DNA of 64,000 bases from a virus: positions 1-64,000 of IMG/VR virus record IMGVR_UViG_3300005758_000037; one strand, written 5' to 3'. The position numbers were made by a program, and so were the translations under genes. Position 1 is the stretch's first letter, and every line of letters begins with the position of its first letter. The notes under the pieces were generated by a model. It did not search any database, was not told where the DNA came from, and saw only the letters and a program-made list of their open reading frames with translations. Shown here in pieces: positions 36,125-60,487 of the stretch.

Positions 36125-36277
36125 TTAAAGCATTTCAATATGCTTATTTTCACCGTTGAATAAAGTTCCACTGTATTTGAAATCTAGAATAAATTTGATA
36201 ACGGCAACTGCCATGCTACCGAAAATAACCACCATGATTGCCATTAAAACTAATGGTAACAAAATTGTTTGCATCAT
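36125..36277 (-). CDS. small membrane protein (50 aa, below ORF-track cutoff)
   Basis: The ATG overlaps the stop of 36274..36855 (ATGA). MMQTILLPLVLMAIMVVIFGSMAVAVIKFIL... is a single TM helix. Confidence 0.5.
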   Translation of the reverse strand: MMQTILLPLVLMAIMVVIFGSMAVAVIKFILDFKYSGTLFNGENKHIEML

Positions 36278-36855
36278 TTTTCCTTCAAATCGGGATTGAG
36301 CATAAATTCTAGCAGAAACATTGCATTAACGGCTACAGCAGCTAAATGCGGCATGTCTGGTACGGAGCTATCAGGATCATAGATTTCACCCTTTCTATGG
36401 GCTTCTAAGTGCCTATAAAGGGCATCTAGATAACGCTGTTCTGCATTCGGTACTTTCTTCCAGTTGTCTCGTTCTTTGTACTTCTTTAGACCGATTGTAA
36501 GGTTACGAGCAACTTCAGCAAGAGCATGTGGAGGAATCAGTGTGTACTGAAGCTTATCCTGATCATACTTTGTACCGGGAATTTGTTGATCCAAATTTAT
36601 ACCGTTTAGTATCTTTAGATTGAAATCTTGGATTTCTTGCGTGATTGATTTGTGTAGCATTTCGATTGGTTTCCAAATTTTGTTATTGCTAATACAATAA
36701 GAATTTGTTACATCACAAGCTTCGTGGCATTTTGAATAGTCACCATTGCTTAAAGTTAAATTAAACATGCAGCCATCACAACCTTCATATTCATCTACAG
36801 GATAATATTGTTTACCCTGAACAGTAAGATTAGTTATTACTTTTGTTTCTGTCAT
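36274..36855 (-). CDS. Cys-rich N-domain + phage NTP diphosphohydrolase-like domain (MazZ/DUF5664-type, tentative)
   Basis: The C-terminal KYDQDKLQYTLIPPHALAEVARNLTIGLKKYKERDNWKKV...YLDALYRHLEAHRKGEIYDPDS..PHLAAVAVNAMFLLEF matches, by eye, the K.D..K..L.P..AL...A.vl..G..KY...NW......Y..A..RHL pattern of phage dATP/dGTP diphosphohydrolase-type domains. Confidence 0.55.
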   Translation of the reverse strand: MTETKVITNLTVQGKQYYPVDEYEGCDGCMFNLTLSNGDYSKCHEACDVTNSYCISNNKIWKPIEMLHKSITQEIQDFNLKILNGINLDQQIPGTKYDQDKLQYTLIPPHALAEVARNLTIGLKKYKERDNWKKVPNAEQRYLDALYRHLEAHRKGEIYDPDSSVPDMPHLAAVAVNAMFLLEFMLNPDLKEK

Positions 36856-37397
36856 TTAATTTCATCCAAATTAATTAATACAAGATTATAACCAAAAGGT
36901 TTCCAATCTGGAAAAACTGTTTGCAGATTCTCTGGAATACAATCTTTCAGATCGTTGCTGACAAAATCACTTGGCTTACGAACTTTATCATTTGCATCTT
37001 TGATGACGTAAACATCATATTTGGATTTGAACTCTGCTACTACATCAATTCCTTGACGTTCGTACATTTCAACAGTTTCAATCGCTACAGCTTCTGTAGT
37101 TGGAAACTTACTTAGATTGTTTACTGCTGTTTTATACAGTGCTTTGTTAACGTTCATTCCTAGATTCTCTAGTTTCTGTAATAGACCAATTGCAGTAACC
37201 ATTACATCTACTGTACCATCCAGAACTTCTTCAGGGTTGTTTGTTGCTAGACCATCACAGGTTTCCTTTAGTTCTTCAACAATCAATTTAAACTGTTCTG
37301 TTAGGTCTTTATGAGATACAAGAGTATCTTTACCTGCTAGTTTATTAAACAAATAGCAGTCAGATTGAAAATCTTGCATGTCGTATTCTAGTTCCAT
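36852..37397 (-). CDS. MazG-like all-alpha NTP pyrophosphohydrolase (tentative)
   Basis: 181 aa with acidic helix pairs (IVEELKETCDG...EEVLDGTVDVMVTAIG) and ..NNLSKF.., typical of the MazG/HisE-type fold. ATGA-coupled to the downstream gene. Confidence 0.5.
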   Translation of the reverse strand: MELEYDMQDFQSDCYLFNKLAGKDTLVSHKDLTEQFKLIVEELKETCDGLATNNPEEVLDGTVDVMVTAIGLLQKLENLGMNVNKALYKTAVNNLSKFPTTEAVAIETVEMYERQGIDVVAEFKSKYDVYVIKDANDKVRKPSDFVSNDLKDCIPENLQTVFPDWKPFGYNLVLINLDEIK

Positions 37398-40973: not shown

Positions 40974-41947
40974 ATTGCGATCTTTCTTTCGTCCATGAAA
41001 TCATAAATATCACTAGGGTCTTTCCAGCTTCGTTTCATGTAAGCACATTGCCAATACATTTGTAGCATCTTCTGCCAAGTACCTTCCTGTTCAACACCGT
41101 GACAATCTGTATAAGCGAATGGTTGAGGATAGAGGCGCTTAAATTCACTGAACAGTACCTGCATAACGTCTTGCTCTGTTCGTGCGTCCTGAAGGGCTTT
41201 CATGGCCTTTGCTGGACCGTATTTAACTTCAGACAGATCGTAACCACAATAAGTATCGGCTGTATCACCAGCTAAGACTTGCAGTGCTAGGAACTTTAGA
41301 CCAGTACCTTTTACGGTCTGCTTGTCTTTGTACAGTTCACCAACATCTGGAATGACCTCAAGCTTCCAATCGTCTTTTTCATACAACCAGTTAAAAATCG
41401 TAACACCTTGACATTGATAGCTGTCTTTGTCAACACTACACAATACAGCTTCTCTGTTTGCGTTCAAGTACTCATATGCTCGGATAGTTACAACATCATC
41501 AACTTCATAGTCTGTTACAATTTGCGCCCCGTACTTTTTACGCATGTGATTTCTTGTTGCTTCAAGATGCACAGGTTTAATCATATCAGCACGATTGCTT
41601 TTATAGGGTTTTGGTAGTGCTAATCTATGTCTGAATGTCTCTCCACCACCTAAATAGACTTCAACATTATCACACCAAGTAAACTTCTGAATACTTTCCA
41701 TGAACTTGTTCACTGTGCTTAGTGCAATTGATACATCTACTTCCTTTTGAACATCTTCAATTTCGTAATCATCTGGATTGAATTCAAACCCTTTGTCAAT
41801 TACGAATTTCTTTAGTTCTGTACGATTCTTGAATTCTTTAGTATTGCCTGATTTTTTAATGGTAGCAATGATTGACCTTTGTTCAGCACCAGCAGCGAAT
41901 CTGTAGGCTATTAAGTCGCCATCTACGATTAGTGTTCTGTCACTCAT
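40970..41947 (-). CDS. 5'-3' exonuclease (T7 gp6-like/FEN-type)
   Basis: Motif series LIVDGDLIAYR, YKSNR, EVDDVV, SVDKDSYQ, AGDTADTYCG as in T7 gene 6-type exonucleases. Confidence 0.75.
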   Translation of the reverse strand: MSDRTLIVDGDLIAYRFAAGAEQRSIIATIKKSGNTKEFKNRTELKKFVIDKGFEFNPDDYEIEDVQKEVDVSIALSTVNKFMESIQKFTWCDNVEVYLGGGETFRHRLALPKPYKSNRADMIKPVHLEATRNHMRKKYGAQIVTDYEVDDVVTIRAYEYLNANREAVLCSVDKDSYQCQGVTIFNWLYEKDDWKLEVIPDVGELYKDKQTVKGTGLKFLALQVLAGDTADTYCGYDLSEVKYGPAKAMKALQDARTEQDVMQVLFSEFKRLYPQPFAYTDCHGVEQEGTWQKMLQMYWQCAYMKRSWKDPSDIYDFMDERKIAI

Positions 41948-42299
41948 TCTTTACACCCTTGATTAGATAAATGAATACGTCTAGACCCTTTTGTCTAGCT
42001 TGTACGATCATGTTTGCAGTACCTTTACTTTCACCATCCCATACTGCGATTAAGGCATCGGCATAGTTTGCCATTTCTGCATTGCGAATTGGACCTGCAC
42101 GTTTACCGTGTGTATTCCAGTCAGCAGGGAATCGCTTGACTGCAATATTTAAATTCTTTGCGAGAAGTTCACCAAGGTAGTCTACACCTCGTGCAGCACC
42201 GGAAACAATCTCTGTAGCTTTAAAACCAGATTTCTCATAGGCAATCTTCACAGCATTGAAGTCTGTAATTTCTCTACCACCAGCAATAATAACTTTCAT
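41940..42299 (-). CDS. SLOG-superfamily (DUF2493-like) Rossmann protein
   Basis: ATG at 42299 after the terminator and an AGGGG RBS. MKVIIAGGREITDF...IVSGAARGVDYLGE...PADW...GPIRNAEM...ALIAVWDGESKGT pattern. Confidence 0.6.
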   Translation of the reverse strand: MKVIIAGGREITDFNAVKIAYEKSGFKATEIVSGAARGVDYLGELLAKNLNIAVKRFPADWNTHGKRAGPIRNAEMANYADALIAVWDGESKGTANMIVQARQKGLDVFIYLIKGVKNE

Positions 42300-42310
42300 A
42301 ACAACCCCTA

Positions 42311-42341
42311 AAGAAAAACCCGAAGGTTTTATCCTCCGGGT
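42311..42341 (-). terminator. intrinsic terminator (minus strand)
   Basis: Reverse complement reads ACCCGGAGG-ataaaa-CCTTCGGGT followed by TTTTTCTTT. Confidence 0.7.
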
Positions 42342-42349
42342 CACTGAAA

Positions 42350-43965: not shown

Positions 43966-44463
43966 TCAGGGTTTATATGCTGAAAATACCTTGCAGGTAA
44001 TTTCTGTTGGTTTAACAAAAGACCAGTTGCTATATTCATTACCATTATAAGATGAGTAATGACAATTAATACGAATATAACCTTTTACGTCAGTTCCTTC
44101 ATATACAGCAAATACTGTATAAACAGGATATTCGCTTAGATCATATGAATCTACAAGACTATTCGTTTGACCTTGATTATACAGGTCATTGTCAAACGTA
44201 GAAGAATCATATGAAACTCTTAGATTTACGTCAGCTAGAGCAGTATTGATCTTGTCTTCGAAATCATTTTCTGGTTTGTGACCAATGAAACCAACAGCAA
44301 TATCATTTGAATTATATTTTACATACTCATTGAATGCAGTCTTAAAACGTTCATGCCATGATAGAGAATTACGAAGTTGTTTAATCTTATCTTGTGCTTC
44401 TTTTTGAATCTTAGCGATCTGTTCTTCAACAGTCAATTCAGTCGTGGATTTAGTTCGTGCCAT
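43966..44463 (-). CDS. hypothetical protein, paralogue of 43607..43960
   Basis: ATG at 44463 with an AAAGGAA RBS. Shares the C-terminal G/C.Y.SYNG.EY..W.FV.P motif. Confidence 0.65.
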   Translation of the reverse strand: MARTKSTTELTVEEQIAKIQKEAQDKIKQLRNSLSWHERFKTAFNEYVKYNSNDIAVGFIGHKPENDFEDKINTALADVNLRVSYDSSTFDNDLYNQGQTNSLVDSYDLSEYPVYTVFAVYEGTDVKGYIRINCHYSSYNGNEYSNWSFVKPTEITCKVFSAYKP

Positions 44464-45262
44464 TTTCAAGTTCCTTTCTAATGTTCTCAAACCTCATTGT
44501 ATCACACAAATCGAATACCTGAGGATAATAATCAATTGCCCAATCTCTGAACCAACCGCTACATAATGTAGTACATACTTTATCTAGTGCTTTGATGTAT
44601 GCATGTCGTACTGGATATTGCCAGTCTCTAGGTACAAGAAAACGCTCGATAGCAATGACTTGTGTTTCTTCAGCTACGCATTTGATTTTATCGTCTGTTG
44701 ACAGCTTATCCCACAAATCTTTGTCACACCATGCGCTACTTGGATCACGCTGAAGTTGAGTATACAACGGTTTGTCGTGATATGCAACAAGTTCGTGCAA
44801 ATAATCATGATTATATTTCTTAGTCACATAATCATCAAAGAAATCGTCAACTGACTTTTTCAAACTAGGGTGACCTTGTGGAAATTCTTTCATTGTCATT
44901 TCAATGCGTTGCTGCAAAAATCCTTTATCTGCAACAGACAGGTTGATACACTTGTATTTTTCAGGAATGTATTTGTGATAGTGCGTGATGTGTTTCTGAA
45001 AGCTCAGATTACGCCACAAATGACTACGTTTGATAATTGACAAACCACGCAAATTCATTACGTTTAGTTCATGACCATTGAAGTTTACTTTATGATGTGA
45101 ACCATAATAAAATGCAAGTTTAGCATTATTCAGAAATTTAGGATCGTGCCATTCAGAACCTTCGATTGGTTCATCACTGATGATATCCCAATCAGTAGTA
45201 TCCTTGATTTTTAATTCAGGATTCCAATATGCTAATGCTCGTGAACCAATCAAAACTTTCAT
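44450..45262 (-). CDS. hypothetical protein with possible minimal nucleotidyltransferase motif
   Basis: ATG at 45262 with an AAGGAAAG RBS; the longer ORF-track start runs into a tRNA-like gene. The N-terminal MKVLIGSRALAYWNPELKIKDTTDWDIISD resembles hG[GS]-x(n)-D-x-D of Pol-beta-type NTases. Lies immediately 3' of the tRNA island. Confidence 0.6.
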   Translation of the reverse strand: MKVLIGSRALAYWNPELKIKDTTDWDIISDEPIEGSEWHDPKFLNNAKLAFYYGSHHKVNFNGHELNVMNLRGLSIIKRSHLWRNLSFQKHITHYHKYIPEKYKCINLSVADKGFLQQRIEMTMKEFPQGHPSLKKSVDDFFDDYVTKKYNHDYLHELVAYHDKPLYTQLQRDPSSAWCDKDLWDKLSTDDKIKCVAEETQVIAIERFLVPRDWQYPVRHAYIKALDKVCTTLCSGWFRDWAIDYYPQVFDLCDTMRFENIRKELENGTN

Positions 45263-45275
45263 GACTTTCCTTATT

Positions 45276-45358
45276 TGGTGTGTATTACGGGATTCGAACC
45301 CGCATCTCAAGGTCATTAGCCCTGCGTCATGATGCCCTAACATTTAGACCAAATACAC
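45276..45358 (-). tRNA. non-canonical tRNA-like gene 1 (isotype unresolved; possible AAT anticodon)
   Basis: Sense strand has a perfect 7-bp acceptor GTGTATT/AATACAC, T-arm GCGGG-TTCGAAT-CCCGT and A + CCA. The D/anticodon region is about 6-7 nt too long. Candidate arm: CAGGG-CTAATGA-CCTTG. Confidence 0.5.
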
Positions 45359-48892: not shown

Positions 48893-50665
48893 TCAATTTG
48901 CGTTGTTGTTCAACCATTCGTCAAGGTTGTGCAACGTGTGTGTTTCGTTATCATAGTATACCATACCAGCAGGACCGGTGATACCACAAATACGATTCTT
49001 ACTGAGTACAACTTTTGTAGTGTTGCGCTCAACGGGGTCTTCAGCATACTTATTCCGACTTAGCAGAATGTTAGCAGATGCAGACTTAATGATAGTAGAA
49101 CTACCTTGAATTTCTTCTTCGGTGAAGTTAGCACCTTGTGAAGAATTCGCAGTACCAGCAGCAGATTTACGAACGTGGTTGATAAAGATCAAAGTTACAT
49201 TGTGACTCTTGATGATGCCTTTAGCCCACTTCATAAACAATGCTTGTTCATCAATACCTAAACCATCCAGAATATCCTGCAATGGATCAAGCACAATGAT
49301 TCTGCAACCGCACGACACTACCAGTTCTTCAACAGTATCTTGAATTTCTTCAATACTACCATCACGGTTATCCAATAGAAAGAATCGGTGTTGACCATCT
49401 TCATTGTAGAACAATTCATTTGCTTTTTCACGAACATTGTCAGATTCTAGCAATTGCTTCTTTGCACCATCGTCCTGAATCAACGATAGCTTACGACTCA
49501 AATGCCGACCTAGCAAAGTTTCACCATATTGACCAGAATCAAGTTCCATAGAAACGATACCAATCTTATGTGGTGAATTGAAAATCCAGTAGTAAATCAT
49601 TTCGTTAACGAATGATGTTTTACCTAGACCAGTACCAGCAGCAACGTTAATAATGTGACCCAATGGAAGACCACCAACCAACATGTCGTTCAATGTCTTC
49701 ATGAATGGTGGAAATGGTACTTTAGGAATTACTGCCTGTTCCAAAATCTTGGAGTATAGATCACCAGAACCAACCACGCCAACAGGCGTATAACGTTTTG
49801 CATTGTAGAAGTCTGCAACAAAATCTTTGCCAGCATCATTCTCAAGGTATTCATTTGCGTCCTTATAACGTAGACCCATTACTTTGACTTTACCTTTTGG
49901 TAGTGCCTTAACTACGTTCTCAATTGCTTCTTTACCAGCCTTGTCATTGTCATAGCATAGAATGATATTATCAAACGAATCAAAGAACTTGTATTGACCG
50001 GCAATTTGTTTGTGCGAGTTTGCACCGGTAGTTGGACTAACGACAGCAGTTTCAAACGTACTACCACGAGTTTTAGCATAGTCAGCAAGCATTTGATATG
50101 CAGACAACGCATCAACTTCACCTTCGGTAATTACGATGTACTTACCACCACGATTGAATCGGAATTGACCGAATAGCTCACAGTCAGCACCAGTACGACC
50201 AATAGAACGGAAATTCTTTGGTACTTCACGAATCTTGTAACCAGTCAATTGACCTTCTTGTGTTACAGGATAATATTGTTCGATTACTTCACCAGTAGCT
50301 TCTGAATACGCATAACGAACACCATAACCTTTACTAGTTTCAAGTGAAATACCACGAAAACCTTTAGGATCAGGTGAAGTTTCAGATTTAATCTCGTTGC
50401 GTTGTTCTTCAGTAATCACCGGCTTGTTACTAGGTTTCACTTCCATAATTTCTTCCTTTCCTACAGTCGATTTCACTCTCGATGGTTTTGATTTCTTGAA
50501 TTCAGATTTTATCTCATTGGACAAGGTTTTATCACTACAAACCCAACAGTAGTGGCTTCCGTCTTCATAAATTGCCTTACCATCGGAGGAACCGCAAACT
50601 TTACATTCTTCATGTCTTACGAAATTTCCCACCAATTCTTCCTTTCTGAGATTTATGAACACCAT
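48893..50665 (-). CDS. bifunctional primase-helicase (T7 gp4-like)
   Basis: Zn finger CKVCGS...HYCWVC. TOPRIM ITEGEVDALS and YDNDKAGKEA. DnaB-type Walker A AAGTGLGKTSF and later helicase motifs. Confidence 0.88.
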   Translation of the reverse strand: MVFINLRKEELVGNFVRHEECKVCGSSDGKAIYEDGSHYCWVCSDKTLSNEIKSEFKKSKPSRVKSTVGKEEIMEVKPSNKPVITEEQRNEIKSETSPDPKGFRGISLETSKGYGVRYAYSEATGEVIEQYYPVTQEGQLTGYKIREVPKNFRSIGRTGADCELFGQFRFNRGGKYIVITEGEVDALSAYQMLADYAKTRGSTFETAVVSPTTGANSHKQIAGQYKFFDSFDNIILCYDNDKAGKEAIENVVKALPKGKVKVMGLRYKDANEYLENDAGKDFVADFYNAKRYTPVGVVGSGDLYSKILEQAVIPKVPFPPFMKTLNDMLVGGLPLGHIINVAAGTGLGKTSFVNEMIYYWIFNSPHKIGIVSMELDSGQYGETLLGRHLSRKLSLIQDDGAKKQLLESDNVREKANELFYNEDGQHRFFLLDNRDGSIEEIQDTVEELVVSCGCRIIVLDPLQDILDGLGIDEQALFMKWAKGIIKSHNVTLIFINHVRKSAAGTANSSQGANFTEEEIQGSSTIIKSASANILLSRNKYAEDPVERNTTKVVLSKNRICGITGPAGMVYYDNETHTLHNLDEWLNNNAN

Positions 50666-51143
50666 TAGTTTTCAACACACTAGCAATGGTTTCACTCGTT
50701 TTACCTAATGCTCTACCAATTTTTGCATTAGACCACCCCTGATTTCGCAATAACAGAACTACTTCAACATAATCAGAATAATTTTCTTTTCCTGTCAAAC
50801 CCATTCTTACAGCATGTTGAGCATTACCTTTATGAGTTGTCCATTCCAAATTGGATATTGCGTTATTATCTCTAGTACCATCTAGATGATTGACAAGCAA
50901 AGATTCACACCCTTCTTGATAATTAAAGCACATCATTATTAATCTGTGAATTCTATGTAGAGTACCAACGCCATTTTCATCATATAAGGTGACGTATTTG
51001 TAACCATTACCATCTGTCCGATGTTTTAAGGTCTTACCTTTCACAGTACGCCACCCATTACTACATCGAACTAATTTATCGAATGAGGTAATAGTACCAT
51101 CACGATCAATCTTGTATTGTCCATTGTACAAATATACAAACAT
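50610..51143 (-). CDS. HNH homing endonuclease (HNH_3-type) with C-terminal HTH
   Basis: ...LHRIHRLIMMCF...LLVNHLDGTRDNNAISNLEWTTHKGNAQHA core and C-terminal QGWSNAKIGRALGKTSETIASVL. Overlaps the primase-helicase start. Confidence 0.8.
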   Translation of the reverse strand: MFVYLYNGQYKIDRDGTITSFDKLVRCSNGWRTVKGKTLKHRTDGNGYKYVTLYDENGVGTLHRIHRLIMMCFNYQEGCESLLVNHLDGTRDNNAISNLEWTTHKGNAQHAVRMGLTGKENYSDYVEVVLLLRNQGWSNAKIGRALGKTSETIASVLKTNGVHKSQKGRIGGKFRKT

Positions 51144-52162
51144 TACTCTCCTGTTTTAAGTAGCCATTTATTTGAAATAGCTTTGAAGCTCCGATCATGA
51201 ACACTTTCTGACTTAAACACGATACCTTCACGTTCAGAACCATTCAAACGTGACTTACCTTCAGCTTCACTGAGGATGCTCTGAATGCTACTACCGACTA
51301 GGGTAATACCTTCAGCTAGAATTGGTATGTGATTCAGACCAAGACGTTCACAAGCCGCTTTAAGCTGTGAAGGCAAAATATATTCACCTGTCCTAGTATT
51401 GTACATGTCGTAAACGTAGAAGTCAAGTACAACTTTATACTGATTTCCTTGGATACCTTCACCAATCATTTCACCTTGAATAGCCATTCCCTTCATGTTG
51501 TTTCGACGCATAATACCTTCGATATCATACTTTTTGGCAGTCTTCCAGAAACTATTGTTTTCATCTTCTTTCAGATCAAGGTTGCGTGAACACACATGGA
51601 ACTGATCTTCGTCATCAAGATAGAAGGTACAAGACGAACCATCAAGTTTTTCTGTAACAGACCAAGTATCTTCCATGAACTTATCGAACTGCTTACTGAG
51701 GTTTTGAATGCGCTCCTGATCAGTTTTTGGTACTAGTGCAGGGAAATTACCACGCACTTGACCAGCAAGCTGTGCAGGAATCGGACGTTCCCACTTTTGC
51801 ACATTCAATGGTACAGATACATCTAGGTCTTCAAATAGAAGACTTTCAATATTCTTACAAGTTGGCTCAAGAGGTAGCAATAGACCTTGTGAGATTTGAC
51901 CACGTAGTTTTACTGTACGCAGACGTTCGCCTTTAACACCATTGTATTCACGAGGTTCAGTACCTTTAGTTAGAAATGGTGCTAGTTCGTTTGGAACCCA
52001 AGAATCGATTTCTAGGTACACCGCAAGCGAATTTACTTCAAATTCATTTTTCTTTACTACAACTTTCCAACCACCAACTGTTGCTACTTCAATTTGATCT
52101 GCACCTTCAATGGGATCGATAGCATCGATTTTACGAATTGTTGCCATTGCACGTTCTGACAT
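51143..52162 (-). CDS. RNA ligase (DRB0094/Rnl5-like, N-terminal OB domain)
   Basis: N-terminal ATIRKIDAIDPIEGADQIEVATVGGWKVVVKKNEF...VYLEIDSWVP and adenylyltransferase motif I TEKLDGSS. Confidence 0.7.
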   Translation of the reverse strand: MSERAMATIRKIDAIDPIEGADQIEVATVGGWKVVVKKNEFEVNSLAVYLEIDSWVPNELAPFLTKGTEPREYNGVKGERLRTVKLRGQISQGLLLPLEPTCKNIESLLFEDLDVSVPLNVQKWERPIPAQLAGQVRGNFPALVPKTDQERIQNLSKQFDKFMEDTWSVTEKLDGSSCTFYLDDEDQFHVCSRNLDLKEDENNSFWKTAKKYDIEGIMRRNNMKGMAIQGEMIGEGIQGNQYKVVLDFYVYDMYNTRTGEYILPSQLKAACERLGLNHIPILAEGITLVGSSIQSILSEAEGKSRLNGSEREGIVFKSESVHDRSFKAISNKWLLKTGE

Positions 52163-53061
52163 TACATATCTCCTTCTGCACGAATTCCTACAAAAACTGG
52201 AAATCTCGGTACTTTGTATCCATTGCCTACATCAAAATATTTGACTTTAGCTAACTTACCAATCAATCCGTCACGTTCAGCCCACATTGTATCACGAAGT
52301 TTGTCCGTAAAACCACTACCGCATGTAAAAACTTCACCTTCTTTTGTCTGCAAGATCAATGCTCCCATTGTATCAAGTGCTTTCATACCTGCTTTTGCAG
52401 TGCTACGCTCAGTACGACCTAGTTCATTAATCTTAGCTTCATTCGTGTTTGTGTACTTTGGTTCAAAACCAATGACCAAGAACTCGTTGTCAACAAAGCG
52501 TTTTACTTTTTGTAGTTCTGGATTCTTTGTGCCAGAACGACCACACTTGTATTTAGCGTCAGAATCTCTCAACATAACACCTTCTGCACCCTGCGCTAGC
52601 ATCTCAGCTTCAAAGTCGTCAATATCAGACATTTGATCTACAGCAAAATGCTCCAGCAATACAACTCGATCAATTGGTGAGTCTTTTAGTTTATTTTTGA
52701 CATAAGCATACCGAGCCAACCAACTTTCAGTAGGATGATATTTATCAAATACCCAAAAAGTGAAATCGGGTTCTCCATCGTGCCGCATTACACCGCTTGT
52801 GCTTTGATTAAACACATCAGGAGCGTTTTTATTACCTACGATAAGCTCACCGTCCATACCTTCGAAGAAATCAGCATGGCGCTTGAAATAAGCCTGAATA
52901 AAGCTATTTGGAATTGGTTTGAGACTGCGTGAGTATCCTACACCACCAAAAACTACACAGCGAATGCCATCTAGCTTTTCAGACATGTACATGTTTGCTG
53001 GCGCAGTCTTTACTTTGCTATGCTCGATAGCGAGAAGTGGTTTGAAACCTTCTGGAATCAT
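52162..53061 (-). CDS. ATP-dependent DNA ligase
   Basis: Motif I SEKLDGIRC, motif IV EGVMLR, motif V ..LQKVKRF. 299 aa (minimal phage ligase size). Confidence 0.8.
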   Translation of the reverse strand: MIPEGFKPLLAIEHSKVKTAPANMYMSEKLDGIRCVVFGGVGYSRSLKPIPNSFIQAYFKRHADFFEGMDGELIVGNKNAPDVFNQSTSGVMRHDGEPDFTFWVFDKYHPTESWLARYAYVKNKLKDSPIDRVVLLEHFAVDQMSDIDDFEAEMLAQGAEGVMLRDSDAKYKCGRSGTKNPELQKVKRFVDNEFLVIGFEPKYTNTNEAKINELGRTERSTAKAGMKALDTMGALILQTKEGEVFTCGSGFTDKLRDTMWAERDGLIGKLAKVKYFDVGNGYKVPRFPVFVGIRAEGDM

Positions 53062-55741: not shown

Positions 55742-56161
55742 ATGCTACTCAAGGAACAATTTGAAGCAACCATCGCACGTATTGGTATTGACGATGACAC
55801 CGACTATGATCTTGCCAGTATCATCTGGAAACGCTGTGAAGATGCCATGATTGGTAAGACCTCACAAGAACCTGTACTCTTGCACAAACCAACCAAGTAT
55901 CGCACGAGTAATGAGCAACTTACTCTGCAAGAGATTCAGTTTCTGAACCAAATCTTTGCTGGAATGCTCACCATTAGCTCGTATAACATTCGTGAACTCA
56001 AAGCAGTGACGCAAGAATTTTGGCTTCAATGCGATCCTGATAATTCTGAAACACAAGAATATTTTGAACATTTGAATCAACTTCGCAGCCTACAACGCAA
56101 ATTCAAGAAATCGCACAACCAACTGGCTACGATCCAACGCAAACTGAAGAAAAGTCGCTGA
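55742..56161 (+). CDS. hypothetical protein, first gene of rightward early block
   Basis: ATG at 55742 after AAAGGAA. The ORF-track version starting at 55619 would begin upstream of the promoter. Confidence 0.6.
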   Translation: MLLKEQFEATIARIGIDDDTDYDLASIIWKRCEDAMIGKTSQEPVLLHKPTKYRTSNEQLTLQEIQFLNQIFAGMLTISSYNIRELKAVTQEFWLQCDPDNSETQEYFEHLNQLRSLQRKFKKSHNQLATIQRKLKKSR

Positions 56162-56508
56162 TGAAACCAAAGAAACGCTATACACTGGTTGCTACTTGTT
56201 TTGACCGAAAAGGTCGTGTAATCGGTACTGGTACAAATGAATACCATCGGTCACATCCCTTGATGCAAGAATTTGCAGTGAAAGCTGGTGAATCTGAAGA
56301 GAAAATCTACAGACATGCTGAATTCAATGCAGTACTTGGTGCTGGTCGAAAAGATGTAGATAGTATCCTTGTACAGCGTTTCCATGCGAATGGTGATATG
56401 GCAAATGCAATGCCTTGTCCTACTTGCCAACAAATGCTAAAATCTTTCGGTGTTCGTCTTGTGCGCTATACACATCCAGATGGAATCAAGGAGTATGAAA
56501 TTGGCTGA
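56161..56508 (+). CDS. small CDA-fold zinc deaminase
   Basis: HAEFNAV ... PCPTCQQML (H-A-E / P-C-x-x-C zinc site) in a 115-aa protein. Confidence 0.7.
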   Translation: MKPKKRYTLVATCFDRKGRVIGTGTNEYHRSHPLMQEFAVKAGESEEKIYRHAEFNAVLGAGRKDVDSILVQRFHANGDMANAMPCPTCQQMLKSFGVRLVRYTHPDGIKEYEIG

Positions 56509-56947
56509 TCAAAAACAACTAGATGAAACGTACATGGGTACTGCCCTGCTGCATGCAAAGCTTTCCAAAGCCCGTAGAGCGCAGGTAGGAGCCATTTTGG
56601 TGACTAGTCATGGGGTAACCCTCACCGGATACAATGGAACCGCTACAGGACGTTCTAATGAATGTGAAGAATTGAAAGCTCAACCATTTCCACATGAACC
56701 TGCACTTGAAACAAAACCAGAAGTAATCCATGCAGAATTAAACTGCGTTCTCAAAGCTGCTCGTGAGGGTGTTAGTTGTATTGGTGCAACAGTCTATGTT
56801 ACACTTAGTCCTTGTATTCAATGCAGTGCAATGCTGGTTCAAGCTGGTGTTAAACGTGTTGTATACAAACAACAGTATCGTGATAATTCTGGTGTAGAAC
56901 TTCTGAAAAGCTGTGGTATACTTGTGCAATCCTATAACGAACTCTGA
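56495..56947 (+). CDS. dCMP deaminase
   Basis: ATG at 56495 after AAGGAG. ...VGAILVTSHGVTLTGYNG..., HAELNCV, TLSPCIQCSAMLVQAGVKRVVY. Confidence 0.85.
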   Translation: MKLADQKQLDETYMGTALLHAKLSKARRAQVGAILVTSHGVTLTGYNGTATGRSNECEELKAQPFPHEPALETKPEVIHAELNCVLKAAREGVSCIGATVYVTLSPCIQCSAMLVQAGVKRVVYKQQYRDNSGVELLKSCGILVQSYNEL

Positions 56948-57287: not shown

Positions 57288-57578
57288 ATGAAAATTTCAG
57301 CAGAAGTAAGACAATCAGTACATGTACAATTTGAGTTAAATCCGAATGAAGATTTTGATACACTACTAAAAGAATTCAATGAAACTATTTTTGAAACTGA
57401 TGAAGCCGGTTTGATTGATTTTATTTGTGGACAACTTACGAGCGACCCTTATTTTGTTGAAGGTATCGGTCCTGTTCAATATTCTAATAGTTTGAATTGG
57501 GAACTGGCAGATGAAGGTACAGTTTTGATGTATAATACATACAAAGATGAGCAGGAAGTAGAAGCACATTATGAGTAA
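57288..57578 (+). CDS. hypothetical acidic protein
   Basis: 96-aa ORF overlapping the next start. Confidence 0.6.
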   Translation: MKISAEVRQSVHVQFELNPNEDFDTLLKEFNETIFETDEAGLIDFICGQLTSDPYFVEGIGPVQYSNSLNWELADEGTVLMYNTYKDEQEVEAHYE

Positions 57579-57975
57579 AGCAACTTTGTATCTAATTCGT
57601 GGTGTACCGGGGGCAGGTAAGACTACTTTTGCTAACATGCTAAACAGTCGTTTGCTTGTTGATCGTGTATACGAAGCTGATCAATGGTTTTATGAGTATG
57701 ATGGTGTTTATAAATTTGATGCTACAAAACTCAGTGACGCACATGAACAATGCCAACGTAATACTCGAAAAGCATTGTCTGAAGGTTTGAATGTAGCTGT
57801 ATCTAATACTTCTTGTAGTGAATGGGAAGTAGCTACTTATGAACTAATTGCTAAAGAATTTGATGCTAATTTTGTGAGTATTATCATTGAGAATCGTCAT
57901 TGTAACGATAGTATTCACAATGTACCAAAAGAAAAAGTAGAACAGATGAAAAGGAAATTCAGTGTACGACTGTAA
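57571..57975 (+). CDS. P-loop polynucleotide-kinase-like protein
   Basis: Walker A LIRGVPGAGKTTFA followed by ..VYEADQWF.. (catalytic Asp position) in a compact 134-aa kinase-domain-only protein. Confidence 0.65.
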   Translation: MSKATLYLIRGVPGAGKTTFANMLNSRLLVDRVYEADQWFYEYDGVYKFDATKLSDAHEQCQRNTRKALSEGLNVAVSNTSCSEWEVATYELIAKEFDANFVSIIIENRHCNDSIHNVPKEKVEQMKRKFSVRL

Positions 57976-57986
57976 GGAGTTATGGA

Positions 57987-58841
57987 ATGTTAAACTATGA
58001 TCAACAAATGAATCTTGTCAATCGTGGTCTTGCAACCATGAAAAACGATGGTAAGTACACTACGTTCAAGTATGCTCGTAAAGCAATGTATGAGTATCTT
58101 TGGTTTGAAGTACCTGATCTTATGGAGTGCAGAGGTCATGTTTATGATAATGCTACGCATGAATTAGTACAGGCAGCACCACGTAAATCATTTAATTACC
58201 TTGAGCGTGGCTGGTGGGCCAATGCCTCTAGAACTACTCAAGTTGAAATGTTTAAAAAGATTAATGGATATATGGCATGTGCTACAATCCACAATGGTGA
58301 ACTTGTTGTATCAACTACAGGTACTACCACATCAGATTATGCAAAGTGGGCTAAAGAACTGATTGAAAAAGACTGGAAACTTTACGACATGGTTATCGAT
58401 TGTGAAGCCACTACTCTATTCGAAGTTGTAGTACCGCAAGACCCTCATATTGTCGAAGAACGAGAAGGTTTACATCTACTTGGTTGGCGTGAAAAAGAAA
58501 ACGGTAAATTTCACCCTAATGGTAGACCAATTGTTTGCGATCTAGAATCTGCTCTGCAAATGGCAGATGAAGACAAAGGTGAAGGTTTTATGGTATACCC
58601 TGTCGGAGTTCATAATACATGTTGTAAAATCAAGACACCTTACTATATTGGTAAGAAAAAATTGATGCGTATGACAGCAAAAAATGTAGAGTTGATGTAT
58701 ACTCAAACACGAACCATCGAGAATCAACTTCCTGAAATGTGGAAGTTTGCACCTCAGATGATTATGGAGCATCATACGAAAGAAGTCTGGTCAAATTCTA
58801 CTGATCAAGAACGTAGAAAGTTTTTGGAGTATATTGAATAA
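57987..58841 (+). CDS. RNA-ligase-like nucleotidyltransferase
   Basis: Covalent-NTase motif series: I FKKINGYMA (K-x-N-G variant), III TLFEVVV, IV GEGFMVY, V CKIKTPYY. Confidence 0.6.
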   Translation: MLNYDQQMNLVNRGLATMKNDGKYTTFKYARKAMYEYLWFEVPDLMECRGHVYDNATHELVQAAPRKSFNYLERGWWANASRTTQVEMFKKINGYMACATIHNGELVVSTTGTTTSDYAKWAKELIEKDWKLYDMVIDCEATTLFEVVVPQDPHIVEEREGLHLLGWREKENGKFHPNGRPIVCDLESALQMADEDKGEGFMVYPVGVHNTCCKIKTPYYIGKKKLMRMTAKNVELMYTQTRTIENQLPEMWKFAPQMIMEHHTKEVWSNSTDQERRKFLEYIE

Positions 58842-59023
58842 TGAACTACCCAATTAAAACACCAAGTGGAAAGAGTTATATTACAATTATTGATGTTAAT
58901 AAAAATATATTTAATATAAGACTTGATGAATATCAAAATCTTTCGGTAGTACTTGATAAAAAGTGCATCCCTGATATGATTAAAATTTTACAGGAGATAA
59001 ATGGTGAAAATTTTCACAAGTGA
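58841..59023 (+). CDS. hypothetical protein (60 aa)
   Basis: ORF coupled to the ligase-like gene (TAATG) and overlapping the phosphoesterase start. Confidence 0.5.
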   Translation: MNYPIKTPSGKSYITIIDVNKNIFNIRLDEYQNLSVVLDKKCIPDMIKILQEINGENFHK

Positions 59024-59579
59024 TCTGCATTTTGGACATAACCGAATTGTAGAATTTACAAATCGTGCTGTTGATTGTGGTTCGCAAAGTAATCACACGC
59101 AATGGCTCATTGATCTTTGGAATACTGAAGTGTCTGCTGGTGATGTTGTCTATCACCTTGGTGACTTTTCATTCTTTAAAAAGTACGAAGATGTTGCTGG
59201 CGTAGCATGTCAACTTAAAGGCAATAAGATTTTTATCAAGGGTAACCATGATCGTCGTGAGCATTTGGATCAACTTGTAAAAGATGATCTTATTACAGCA
59301 TGGTATGATTACAAGGAAATCAAACTTGGTGATACTTCTGTAGTACTTTTCCATTTTCCTATTGCCTCGTGGCACAAGCAAGGATATGGTGCATACCATT
59401 TACATGGTCATTGTCATGGTAATTTTAAGGATTCACATGGGAAAATGCTTGACGTAGGTATCGATAGCATGTATAATTTATATGGAGTTCATGGTTTTAT
59501 TGACGAGCATCAGATTCATACAATCATGAAAGAAAAAGAATTATATCTTGCAGATCAACATAGAAAGGATTTATCTTGA
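59001..59579 (+). CDS. calcineurin-like metallophosphoesterase
   Basis: AGGAG RBS. Motifs SDLHFGH, HLGDF, GNHD, FHFP, HGHCHG. Confidence 0.8.
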   Translation: MVKIFTSDLHFGHNRIVEFTNRAVDCGSQSNHTQWLIDLWNTEVSAGDVVYHLGDFSFFKKYEDVAGVACQLKGNKIFIKGNHDRREHLDQLVKDDLITAWYDYKEIKLGDTSVVLFHFPIASWHKQGYGAYHLHGHCHGNFKDSHGKMLDVGIDSMYNLYGVHGFIDEHQIHTIMKEKELYLADQHRKDLS

Positions 59580-60487
59580 CAATTAGCGCAACCGTAATCG
59601 CAGATAGCATTAGTCCAGAAGGTGTACGTATCACCACACTGGAACTGGAATACCCTCGTTTCATTCATGCTGAATTAATGACACATCGTGTGTTTAGTCG
59701 CAATAGTGCATCGAGTCGTGCTATTCCAATTAAGACAATGCTCGATACCATTATGTTTAATCCAGCCACACCTGTGCATTGGGGTAAAAACCAAGCGGGT
59801 ATGCAAGCTAAAGAAGAGTTGGAGCAACCACAAAAGATTCGGGCACAAGCTCTTTGGAATACGGCAAAATCTGCTGCTGTAAAATATTCAGATATGATGC
59901 ACGAAGCTGGTGTACACAAGCAAATTGCTAATCGTATCACTGAACCGTTCCAACACATGAAGGTAGTCGTAACATCTACTGAGTGGAATAATTGGGACTG
60001 GTTACGTTATCATCCTGATGCACAACCTGAAATTAAAGAACTGGCATACATGACAATTCTAGCTAGAAAAGATTCTATCCCTCAGAAACTAAAGCATGGT
60101 GAATGGCATGTACCTTATGTACAAACCAAGCGTCATGAAGCTGGTTATCTAGAATATTTTGATGAAACCGGTAAGCAAATCTCTGCACATGAAGCCATTA
60201 TGATCAGTGCCAGTTGCTGTGCCCAAACATCATATCGTAAATCAGATACCAGTCTAGAAAAGGCAGAAACGATCTACAAGCGATTAATTGAGAGTGAACC
60301 GTGTCATGCCTCACCTGTAGAGCATCAAGCCGCTGTGATCGATTTTACCTATGCACAAGCTTGGGATTCAAATAGTTGGCCTGTTGGTGTAACACATGTT
60401 GATCGCTATGGTGTTTTCTGGTCTGGTAATTTCCGTGGTTGGGTGCAGTATCGCCAACTCGTACCTAATAACGCAAAGAAAGGTTAA
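59576..60487 (+). CDS. thyX: flavin-dependent thymidylate synthase
   Basis: ThyX signature ELMTHRVFSRNSASSRAIP (RHR..S....S.R variant). 303 aa. TTG start overlapping the upstream stop. Confidence 0.85.
   Translation: MTISATVIADSISPEGVRITTLELEYPRFIHAELMTHRVFSRNSASSRAIPIKTMLDTIMFNPATPVHWGKNQAGMQAKEELEQPQKIRAQALWNTAKSAAVKYSDMMHEAGVHKQIANRITEPFQHMKVVVTSTEWNNWDWLRYHPDAQPEIKELAYMTILARKDSIPQKLKHGEWHVPYVQTKRHEAGYLEYFDETGKQISAHEAIMISASCCAQTSYRKSDTSLEKAETIYKRLIESEPCHASPVEHQAAVIDFTYAQAWDSNSWPVGVTHVDRYGVFWSGNFRGWVQYRQLVPNNAKKG

What the first reader, a model, noticed from the sequence alone, without database searches (positions are those of the whole stretch)
57571..59579. Split Pnkp-like RNA-repair set: stand-alone kinase, ligase-like adenylyltransferase and metallophosphoesterase in one cluster
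Three consecutive genes, with a 60-aa ORF between the last two, supply an RNA-repair toolkit. The first is a P-loop kinase domain only (GVPGAGKT, 134 aa). The second is a covalent nucleotidyltransferase with the motif series KINGY / FEVV / EGFMV / KIKT. The third is a calcineurin-type phosphoesterase (DLHFGH, GDF, GNHD, HGHCHG). These are exactly the three activities fused in bacterial Pnkp (kinase - metallophosphoesterase - ligase-like domain, as in Clostridium thermocellum). Functionally they correspond to T4 Pnkp + Rnl1, which heal and seal tRNAs cut by anticodon nucleases. Here they are separate polypeptides in the order K-L-P, and motif I has Asn in place of the usual Asp (K-x-N-G). Together with 12 tRNA(-like) genes and a second RNA ligase at 51143..52162, the phage appears heavily invested in countering tRNA-directed host defence.
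Basis: partly seen in the sequence, partly recalled or inferred. Interest (0 to 1): 0.7.

Follow-up and report, generated by a model that had tools for sequence, protein, structure and literature searches.

The report
Phage RNA heal-and-seal gene trio
Three neighbouring phage genes encode a small kinase, an RNA ligase and a metal-dependent phosphoesterase that most likely mend RNA cut by the host, such as tRNA, but this trio occurs in hundreds of phage genomes and has already been described by comparative genomics, so it is a sound yet ordinary finding.

Summary

- **Ligase (57987-58841):** a real covalent nucleotidyltransferase of the T4 Rnl1 / fungal Trl1 clade.
  - Evidence: PHROG 562 at 7.7e-40; wide profile against T4 Rnl1 at 4e-17; Foldseek top hit T4 Rnl1, then Trl1.
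- **Kinase (57571-57975):** a minimal P-loop kinase. Its fold is nearest to polynucleotide kinases and PSTK. It keeps the catalytic Asp.
- **Phosphoesterase (59001-59579):** a complete binuclear metallophosphoesterase of the uncharacterised AQ1575/aq_1665 type. It is not the Pnkp/lambda-phosphatase type.

Kinase and ligase have nearly the same distribution (627 and 642 phage genomes). They were linked in all 44 loci I examined, in shuffled gene orders. The phosphoesterase is usually nearby but is much more widespread (1510 genomes).

An end-healing and sealing role in RNA repair is therefore the best reading, though it is untested. It is not new. Iyer et al. 2022 described this neighbourhood in rV5-like phages, and GenBank records already call the parts RNA ligase and polynucleotide kinase.

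The "unusual" K-x-N-G is the normal motif I of Trl1 ligases and is invariant in this phage clade.

Side claims need correcting. The second ligase is on the minus strand and is DraRnl-type. There are 9-10 tRNAs, not 12.

The parts
57571..57975 (+). K: stand-alone minimal P-loop kinase (134 aa), predicted 5'-OH polynucleotide kinase
   Evidence: Family and fold:
- Pfam AAA_33 2.5e-9; phrog_2071 6.5e-40; phrog_505 'polynucleotide kinase' 7.5e-8.
- AF2 model pLDDT 85.
- Foldseek PDB best TM: PSTK 0.75, C. thermocellum Pnkp kinase 0.72-0.75, T4 Pnk 0.70.
- Nearest viral models are annotated polynucleotide kinases, and some are kinase-metallophosphatase or kinase-ligase fusions.

Residues:
- P-loop G11-T18 and invariant D37, which aligns with T4 Pnk D35.
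- T4 R38 is replaced by F40.
- Only one lid Arg (R109) is conserved (inference from the alignment).
57987..58841 (+). L: short Rnl1-like ATP-dependent RNA ligase (284 aa) with Trl1-type motif I K91-I-N93-G94
   Evidence: Family and fold:
- phrog_562 7.7e-40. Close homologues carry PF09511.
- Wide profile vs T4 Rnl1 4e-17 across motifs I-V.
- hhalign vs a T4-type RnlA: prob 98%, 2e-13, but only up to Rnl1 residue 250.
- AF2 pLDDT 90.5.
- Foldseek: T4 Rnl1 1e-11 (TMq 0.68), then fungal Trl1-LIG.

Invariant across 11 genera-level relatives: R49, K67, K91, N93, G94, E146, H154, E199, G200, K214, K216, K224, R228.
58841..59023 (+). Small 60-aa ORF in the variable slot between L and P; not a core part
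   Evidence: - No family hit.
- Conserved in only 3 of 36 related loci.
- Other relatives carry different small ORFs in this slot.
59001..59579 (+). P: binuclear metallophosphoesterase (192 aa) of the AQ1575/aq_1665 type, predicted 2',3'-phosphate end-healing enzyme
   Evidence: - phrog_547 3.5e-43; Pfam Metallophos_2 5e-4, below the cut-off.
- Profile vs PDB: the only hit at E <= 10 is 1xm7, Aquifex aq_1665, at 5.6e-11.
- Residues at the canonical metal-ligand motif positions are all invariant: D8, H10, D55, N82, H83, H118, H137, H139.
- Within about 3 kb of L in 27 of 36 close and 7 of 8 distant loci.
51143..52162 (-). Second RNA ligase, DraRnl/DRB0094 (Rnl5-type) with N-terminal OB domain; context, not part of the trio
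   Evidence: - TIGR02306 6.3e-56, 190 bits against a cut-off of 151.
- PF09414 2.4e-31 and PF21189 1.1e-29.
- Adjacent to an ATP-dependent DNA ligase at 52162-53061(-).

Best explanation
K, L and P form a phage RNA 'heal-and-seal' module. [quoted passage not shown]

- **P**, a two-metal phosphoesterase, removes or opens the 2',3'-phosphate.
- **K** transfers a phosphate from an NTP to the 5'-OH. D37 acts as the general base.
- **L** adenylylates itself on K91, passes the AMP to the 5'-phosphate, and joins the ends.

The genes sit in one + strand gene run together with dCMP deaminase and ThyX.

**Shown here:** the family and fold of each protein, the conservation of catalytic residues, and the conserved linkage of the three genes.

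**Inferred:** the substrates (RNA ends, tRNA), the order of the steps, and the role in countering host defence.
For: **Ligase**
- Rnl1 family by HMM, profile and fold.
- Of the T4 Rnl1 residues I recall as essential (own knowledge), all those aligned here are kept except D101, which is N93, and K119, which is T111.

**Kinase**
- Nearest folds are polynucleotide kinases and PSTK.
- Nearest PDB sequences are the stand-alone Mucorales tRNA-splicing 5'-OH kinases and T4 Pnk (PMC11571804).
- The catalytic Asp is conserved.
- Viral structural neighbours include kinase-metallophosphatase and kinase-ligase fusions.

**Phosphoesterase**
- Complete metal-binding motifs.

**Linkage**
- K is adjacent to L in 36 of 36 close loci, and P is within 2 kb in 27.
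- In 8 phages of different genera, K is within 5.5 kb of L in all 8 (about 1 kb in 7).
  - Genera: Otagovirus, Pakpunavirus, Vequintavirus, Seunavirus, Pogseptimavirus, Saclayvirus, Thalassavirus, Busanvirus.
- P is within 3 kb in 7 of those 8, with orders P-L-K, L-K-P and K-L-P.
- Phyletic profiles of L and K nearly coincide: 642 vs 627 records, with the same genus counts.
- No terminator-like site lies between 56.2 and 60.7 kb on the + strand.

**Context and literature**
- The phage also carries 9-10 tRNAs and a second RNA ligase.
- Iyer et al. 2021 and 2022 reached the same reading for such neighbourhoods (PMC7824862; PMC9503650).
Against: - No biochemical or genetic test exists for any member of these three phage families, as far as the searched literature shows.
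- K lacks the counterparts of two residues I recall as essential for the T4 Pnk kinase (own knowledge): R38 is F40, and R126 falls in a non-conserved position.
- P's closest characterised relatives are none: aq_1665 is a structural-genomics protein of unknown function.
- The P family is 2.4 times more widespread than L and K.
- P is absent near L in 9 of 36 close loci. L010 is clear; several others end less than 5 kb downstream of L.
- The genes are embedded among nucleotide-metabolism genes (dCMP deaminase, ThyX). That would also fit a nucleotide-directed role for K or P.
Confidence: 0.62

Rival explanations
1. Only K and L work together as kinase plus ligase. P is an independent enzyme, for example a phosphodiesterase for nucleotide second messengers or a nucleotidase. 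It merely shares the same early or auxiliary gene region. Removal of the 3'-end phosphate is left to another protein or to the host.
For: - The P family is in 1510 phage records against 642 (L) and 627 (K). These include Staphylococcus, Listeria, Enterococcus and Mycobacterium phages.
- P is missing within 8 kb of L in some relatives, e.g. L010, and in Vibrio phage PG07, where an HD phosphohydrolase sits next to L instead.
- P is separated from L by variable small ORFs.
- Its only structural relative has no known function.
- Calcineurin-like phosphodiesterases are proposed counter-nucleotide enzymes in phages (PMC7824862).
Against: - P stays within about 3 kb of L in 7 of 8 distant genera despite rearranged gene order.
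- Kinase-metallophosphatase fusions exist among the structural neighbours of K and in bacterial Pnkp.
- A 5'-kinase plus ligase without a 3'-healing activity cannot repair the usual 2',3'-cyclic-phosphate breaks (established RNA-repair chemistry; PMC1920235).
Confidence: 0.2
2. The module works like the fungal Trl1 pathway rather than like T4.

- P only opens the cyclic phosphate to a 2'-phosphate.
- L needs that 2'-phosphate to seal.
- The junction 2'-phosphate is then removed with NAD+, by a host KptA or, in other phages, by the neighbouring SIR2 protein.
For: - L has the Trl1-type motif I KxNG throughout the clade (PMC6379707, PMC10946426).
- hhalign places the invariant H154 of L on Chaetomium Trl1 His227. 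That residue is a ligand of the sulfate proposed to mimic the 2'-PO4. T4 Rnl1 has Ile there (PMC6379707).
- An invariant basic cluster (K224, R228) follows motif V, as R334/R337 do in Trl1.
- In other genera the genes lie beside SIR2, Macro and NAD+ salvage genes.
- Iyer et al. 2022 proposed 2'-phosphate removal by that SIR2.
Against: - Overall, L is much closer to T4 Rnl1 than to Trl1 (hhalign 2e-13 vs 1.9e-4; no Trl1 hit by HMM).
- The Arg337 equivalent is ambiguous in the alignment.
- The C-terminal module does not align with the Trl1 C-domain.
- Neither the window nor the complete genome of the closest phage has a homologue of the SIR2, Macro, HD or NAD+ genes.
- Metallophosphoesterases of the Pnkp type normally remove the phosphate completely (PMC1920235).
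Confidence: 0.15
3. K and P are nucleotide-metabolism enzymes (an NMP or nucleoside kinase and a nucleotidase) that serve the dCMP deaminase / ThyX pathway encoded in the same gene run. L is unrelated to them.
For: - The genes lie between dCMP deaminase (56450-56947) and ThyX (59576-60487) with no terminator-like site between them.
- Weak P-loop-only hits to thymidylate-kinase PHROGs.
- JGI names such as 'uridine kinase' for homologues.
Against: - K (134 aa) has no NMP-binding or lid domains of the NMP kinases. Its best folds are polynucleotide kinases and PSTK, not dTMP kinases.
- In other genera K and L stay together away from ThyX and dCMP deaminase.
- K and L share one phyletic profile.
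Confidence: 0.03

Closest known systems
Phage 'T4-like tRNA ligase + nucleotide kinase + (occasional) calcineurin-like phosphoesterase' neighbourhood of Escherichia phage rV5 / Proteus phage Mydo (Iyer, Burroughs, Anantharaman, Aravind 2022, PMC9503650; also Iyer et al. 2021, PMC7824862)
   Same: - Orthologous L, K and P proteins (30-44% identity).
- Same linkage.
- Same predicted role in cleaning up and ligating cleaved RNA.
   Different: - The window's phage, and its complete relative DC31, have only the bare trio.
- No homologue was found of any other ORF from the eight reference neighbourhoods, which in those phages include SIR2, HD, Macro and NAD+ salvage genes. Only a MazG-like gene is present, and it lies elsewhere. 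The cREC protein of that description was not specifically identified or tested.
- The gene order here is K-L-P.
T4 Pnkp (PseT) + Rnl1 tRNA repair pathway
   Same: - Same logic: 5'-kinase, 3'-end phosphoesterase, ATP-dependent ligase.
- L shares the Rnl1 N-terminal sub-domain and NTase motifs.
- K shares the P-loop, the catalytic Asp and the SxT motif.
   Different: - T4 fuses the kinase to a DxDxT (HAD) phosphatase. Here the phosphatase is a separate binuclear metallophosphoesterase.
- L lacks the T4 Rnl1 C-terminal tRNA-specificity domain: alignment stops at residue 250 of about 375.
- L has N instead of D in motif I.
- K lacks the R38 and R126 equivalents.
Bacterial Pnkp-Hen1 (Clostridium thermocellum)
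   Same: The same three activities, including a metallophosphoesterase for the 3' end. The K fold matches the CthPnkp kinase domain at TM 0.72-0.75.
   Different: - Pnkp is one polypeptide (kinase-phosphatase-ligase) and needs Hen1.
- Its phosphatase is lambda-phosphatase-like, and its ligase is the Rnl4 type.
- P matches none of these by sequence.
- L is Rnl1-like.
- No Hen1 was seen in the ORFs scanned.
Fungal Trl1, and its split form in Mucorales (stand-alone RNL and KIN; PMC10946426, PMC11571804)
   Same: - Separate ligase and 160-210-aa kinase polypeptides.
- Motif I KxNG.
- A His after motif III aligned with Trl1 His227.
- The Mucorales kinases are the best sequence hits of K in the PDB.
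   Different: - Trl1 uses a 2H cyclic phosphodiesterase, not a metallophosphoesterase.
- The Trl1 C-domain is not detectable in L.
- Sequence similarity is weak (hhalign 1.9e-4, prob 47%).
- Dependence on a 2'-PO4 is unknown for L.

Membership tests
Covalent lysine nucleotidyltransferase superfamily / ATP-dependent RNA ligase | Motifs I (KxxG lysine), III (Glu), IV (EG) and V (KxK) in order | tested here: met
   K91-x-N-G94, E146, E199-G200 and K214/K216 align with T4 Rnl1 K99, E159, E227-G228 and K240/K242. All are invariant in 15 diverse homologues.
Rnl1 family (T4 Rnl1) | [quoted passage not shown] | tested here: met
   R49, K67 and F69 align with R54, K75 and F77. Foldseek top hit is 2c5u at E 1e-11. 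PF09511 is on the homologues.
Rnl1 family (T4 Rnl1) | C-terminal domain (T4 residues about 255-374) that confers tRNA specificity. RNA ligase families are defined by their appended domains (PMC6379707). | tested here: not met
   HMM and hhalign alignments end at Rnl1 residue 249-250. L has only about 60 helical residues after motif V. NCBIfam TIGR02308 scores 26 bits against a cut-off of 242.
Trl1-LIG / Rnl6 | Motif I KxNG | tested here: met
   K91-I-N93-G94 is invariant across the clade. The Trl1 motif is taken from PMC6379707.
Trl1-LIG / Rnl6 | 2'-PO4 site (Cth His227, Arg334, Arg337) and the Trl1-specific C-domain | tested here: inconclusive
   H154 aligns with His227. The Arg positions are ambiguous: there is a K223-K225/R228 cluster. 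The C-domain is not aligned. hhalign probability is only 47% and 21%.
5'-OH polynucleotide kinase (T4 Pnk / CthPnkp / Trl1-KIN type) | P-loop plus a downstream catalytic Asp that activates the 5'-OH | tested here: met
   G11-x4-G-K17-T18 and invariant D37 align with T4 D35. The role of the Asp is taken from PMC11571804.
5'-OH polynucleotide kinase (T4 Pnk / CthPnkp / Trl1-KIN type) | Arg three residues after the Asp (T4 R38) and a lid Arg pair (T4 R122/R126) | tested here: not met
   F40 is nearly invariant at the R38 position. Only R109 (90% or more) lies in the lid, and the second position is variable. The residue mapping is my inference. The lid region of the model has low pLDDT.
5'-OH polynucleotide kinase (T4 Pnk / CthPnkp / Trl1-KIN type) | Fold similarity to solved polynucleotide kinases | tested here: met
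   TM 0.70-0.75 to 4gp7/4jst, 1ly1/2ia5 and PSTK 3a4n.
5'-OH polynucleotide kinase (T4 Pnk / CthPnkp / Trl1-KIN type) | Phosphorylation of 5'-OH RNA or DNA | not testable with these tools
   Needs an enzyme assay.
Binuclear metallophosphoesterase (calcineurin-like) superfamily | DxH ... GD ... GNH[DE] ... H ... GHxH metal ligands | tested here: met
   D8, H10, D55, N82-H83, H118 and H137/H139 are invariant in 35 homologues. 1xm7 at 5.6e-11.
Pnkp / lambda-phosphatase-type 2',3'-phosphoesterase | Sequence relationship to the CthPnkp phosphatase domain or lambda phosphatase | tested here: not met
   A profile search of all PDB sequences at E <= 10 returns only aq_1665. PAK_P4's orthologue is assigned to CDD MPP_AQ1575 by its annotators.
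Bacterial Pnkp-Hen1 system | Single kinase-phosphatase-ligase polypeptide with a Hen1 methyltransferase partner | tested here: not met
   There are three separate ORFs. No methyltransferase was found among the neighbouring ORFs scanned.

The most novel reading that the evidence does not exclude
The roughly 290-aa phage ligases of this clade (about 640 genomes) are a separate RNA ligase family. They have an Rnl1-type adenylyltransferase core, a short C-terminal module of their own, and Trl1-like active-site features (KxNG, and a His aligned with the Trl1 2'-PO4-site His227).

Together with a minimal kinase that lacks the usual acceptor-binding Arg, and an AQ1575-type metallophosphoesterase, they would run a bacterial-virus version of the fungal 2'-phosphate-dependent tRNA ligation pathway. 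That would also explain why SIR2, Macro and NAD+ genes sit next to them in other phages.
Probability: 0.15. Interest if true: 0.6.

Novelty: new member of a known kind. Interest (0 to 1): 0.33.

Why it matters
tRNA-cleaving defence systems are now recognised as common, for example PrrC, RloC, PARIS, retron effectors, Cas13 and bacterial Schlafens. Phage answers to them, their own tRNAs and RNA repair, shape host range.

This trio is one of the most widespread predicted phage RNA-repair sets. It occurs in therapeutic Pseudomonas, E. coli, Klebsiella and Acinetobacter phages. As far as I could find, none of its three proteins has been assayed.

Showing what ends the ligase accepts would define a new ligase branch and might give a useful enzyme. 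For this particular window, though, the finding adds another member rather than a new principle.

Tried and rejected
- **Nucleotide search:** megablast of the region against phage genomes gave no match. Only protein-level searches worked.
- **Pfam on L itself:** no hit. The family was reached through PHROGs, homologues and profiles.
- **NCBIfam:** no model passes its cut-off for K, L or P.
- **Looser PDB search for P:** raising the E-value limit to 10, to find a Pnkp or lambda-phosphatase relationship, added nothing.
- **Accessory genes:** I looked in the window and in the whole DC31 genome for SIR2, Macro, HD, NadV and PRPP-synthetase homologues that accompany the trio elsewhere. None was found. 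KptA/Tpt1 could not be searched genome-wide for lack of a query; the Pfam scans of 37 window ORFs showed none.
- **Promoter and terminator scan:** promoter-like sites are not enriched over shuffles, so no operon boundaries can be claimed. The only useful result is that no terminator-like site lies inside the cluster.
- **Burroughs & Aravind 2016 (NAR):** not held in the library.
- **Role of T4 Rnl1 Asp101:** the literature search found nothing useful.
- **P structure:** not predicted, because the two structure jobs went to K and L.
- **'Tail fibre attachment':** I rejected this annotation carried by many homologues as evidence. It is copied from T4 gp63.
Full report
**What is there**

Between 57571 and 59579 the + strand carries four tightly packed ORFs:
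- K: 57571-57975, 134 aa.
- L: 57987-58841, 284 aa.
- A 60-aa ORF: 58841-59023.
- P: 59001-59579, 192 aa.

Two deaminase genes lie upstream (56161-56508 and 56450-56947). No terminator-like site lies between 56.2 and 60.7 kb on this strand.

The window is from a phage whose nearest sequenced relative is Limnohabitans phage DC31 (64-70% protein identity for K, L and P). It has no nucleotide-level match among deposited phages.

**The ligase**

L has no Pfam hit of its own, but several lines place it in the Rnl1 family:
- It matches PHROG 562, the T4 Rnl1 family, at 7.7e-40.
- Most of its close homologues carry PF09511.
- A profile of 15 diverse homologues finds T4 Rnl1 in the PDB at 4e-17, with an alignment that runs through all nucleotidyltransferase motifs.
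- The predicted structure (pLDDT 90.5) is closest to T4 Rnl1, then to fungal Trl1 ligase domains, then to archaeal Rnl3.

The residues that contact ATP and the metal in T4 Rnl1 have counterparts: R49, K67, F69, K91, G94, E146, E199, G200, K214 and K216. These are invariant or nearly so across the clade.

Two points differ from T4 Rnl1.

First, motif I is K-x-N-G. This is not an anomaly:
- It is invariant in relatives from eleven phage lineages.
- It is the standard motif I of fungal Trl1 ligases, where the Asn holds the catalytic metal through water (PMC6379707; PMC10946426).

Second, the alignment with Rnl1 stops at residue 250. L has only about 60 helical residues after motif V. It therefore lacks the T4 C-terminal domain that gives tRNA specificity.

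By the convention that RNA ligase families are defined by their appended domains (PMC6379707), L is Rnl1-like in its core but is not a full member of the Rnl1 family.

**The kinase**

K is a bare P-loop domain (AAA_33 2.5e-9; phrog_2071 6.5e-40).
- Its model (pLDDT 85) is closest in TM-score to O-phosphoseryl-tRNA kinase, the kinase domain of C. thermocellum Pnkp, and T4 polynucleotide kinase (0.70-0.75).
- Its nearest viral models are annotated polynucleotide kinases. Some are fused to metallophosphatases or ligases.
- The best PDB sequence matches are the stand-alone 5'-OH RNA kinases that Mucorales fungi use in tRNA splicing, and T4 Pnk (PMC11571804).
- The invariant D37 aligns with the general-base Asp of these enzymes.

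Against a simple assignment, the position of T4 R38 is a conserved Phe. Only one Arg is conserved in the lid, which is also the least confident part of the model. Some GenBank records already name orthologues 'polynucleotide kinase'.

**The phosphoesterase**

P has every metal ligand of the binuclear metallophosphoesterases. Its only relative among all PDB sequences is Aquifex aq_1665, a protein of unknown function. Annotators of PAK_P4 place the orthologue in CDD MPP_AQ1575. It is therefore not the lambda-phosphatase-like type found in bacterial Pnkp. Its substrate cannot be read from homology.

**Linkage**

| Set examined | K relative to L | P relative to L |
|---|---|---|
| 36 related loci (34 viral contigs, DC31, phiPsa374) | within 1.1 kb upstream or about 0.5 kb downstream in all 36 (abutting in most) | within 2 kb in 27 |
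| 8 phages of different genera, myoviruses and T5-like siphoviruses | within 5.5 kb in all 8, within about 1 kb in 7 | within 3 kb in 7 |

In the eight distant phages the gene order is P-L-K, L-K-P, or split across strands. The linkage has therefore survived rearrangement.

L and K occur in 642 and 627 of 50,697 phage records, with almost identical genus counts. P's family is in 1510 records, including many Gram-positive phages. The K-L bond is therefore strong and the P bond is looser.

The 60-aa ORF is conserved in only 3 of 36 loci and is not part of the set.

**Mechanism**

- P clears or opens the 3'-end phosphate.
- K phosphorylates the 5' end.
- L seals.

The phage also carries 9-10 tRNA genes. 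It has a second, DraRnl-type RNA ligase on the minus strand at 51143-52162, next to a DNA ligase. This fits an investment in keeping translation running under attack.

All of this is inference from family, fold and context. Nothing here shows activity.

**A variant worth testing**

Besides KxNG, L has an invariant His (H154) eight residues after the motif III Glu.
- hhalign places H154 on Chaetomium Trl1 His227, a ligand of the sulfate thought to mimic the RNA 2'-phosphate (PMC6379707).
- T4 Rnl1 has Ile at that position.
- A conserved basic cluster (K224, R228) follows motif V, roughly where Trl1 has R334 and R337. The register is ambiguous.

In other genera the trio sits beside SIR2, Macro, HD and NAD+ salvage genes. 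Iyer et al. 2022 proposed that this SIR2 removes a 2'-phosphate.

Against this:
- L is far closer to T4 Rnl1 overall (2e-13 against 1.9e-4).
- Neither the window nor the complete DC31 genome has homologues of those accessory genes.

I give this variant about 15%.

**Comparison with what is known**

The idea of phage RNA ligases working with polynucleotide kinases and phosphoesterases, calcineurin-like ones included, is set out in Iyer et al. 2021.

Iyer et al. [quoted passage not shown] My searches show that the window's K, L and P are orthologues of the rV5 proteins.

The finding is thus a further, stripped-down member of a known, computationally described, experimentally untested module. 'Split Pnkp' is a fair functional picture but not a statement of descent.

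**Verdict**

The identities, and the view that the three genes form one set, hold. The Pnkp kinship, the oddity of KxNG, the novelty of the arrangement and two side facts do not.
- Interest is modest for this window.
- The ligase clade as a whole deserves biochemical work.

Noticed in passing
window 45279-45358 (-): Rfam finds a tenth tRNA (51 bits) that ARAGORN does not report. It overlaps the 5' end of ORF 44450-45343 (DUF7275/DUF7277).
   Followed up: no
window 36274-36855 (-) and 36852-37397 (-): A dATP/dGTP diphosphohydrolase N-terminal domain protein (PF18909, 5.9e-30) lies next to a MazG/PRA-PH-like protein. The MazG-like protein is weakly homologous to PVP-SE1 gp113, which lies about 3.7 kb from the ligase in PVP-SE1.
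   Followed up: partly
window 56161-56508 (+) and 56450-56947 (+): Two deaminase genes lie in tandem and overlap by 59 nt. The first is a 115-aa mini-deaminase with an HAE...PCxxC zinc site. The second is a full dCMP deaminase.
   Followed up: no
window 50610-51143 (-): An HNH/NUMOD4 homing-endonuclease-like gene is wedged between the primase-helicase (48893-50665) and the DraRnl-type RNA ligase.
   Followed up: no
window 41940-42344 (-): A YAcAr-type SLOG protein, annotated 'DprA-like' in other phages. A gene carrying the same 'DprA-like' annotation lies about 0.4 kb from the ligase in PG07 and about 4.6 kb from it in PAK_P4; homology to this ORF was not tested.
   Followed up: no
L037 (PAK_P4), L002 (phiPsa374), L040 (PVP-SE1), L041 (TAC1), L042 (AG74): In other genera the K-L-P genes sit next to a PRPP-synthetase-like gene plus a NadV-like gene. 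I recall this pair from the literature as a phage NAD+ reconstitution pathway (own knowledge, not checked here). A Macro-domain phosphatase (PAK_P4; 'phosphatase' genes in the same position in AG74 and TAC1), an HD phosphohydrolase and SIR2 are also there. None of these is in the window or in DC31.
   Followed up: partly
BFVD hits to the K model: K-like kinase domains occur fused to other modules in other viruses. Examples are a 'DNA ligase' of Vibrio phage Kuja (328 aa), a Ser/Thr-phosphatase-like protein of Agrobacterium phage Atu_ph07 (418 aa), and a 'tRNA ligase/uridine kinase' of Bodo saltans virus.
   Followed up: no
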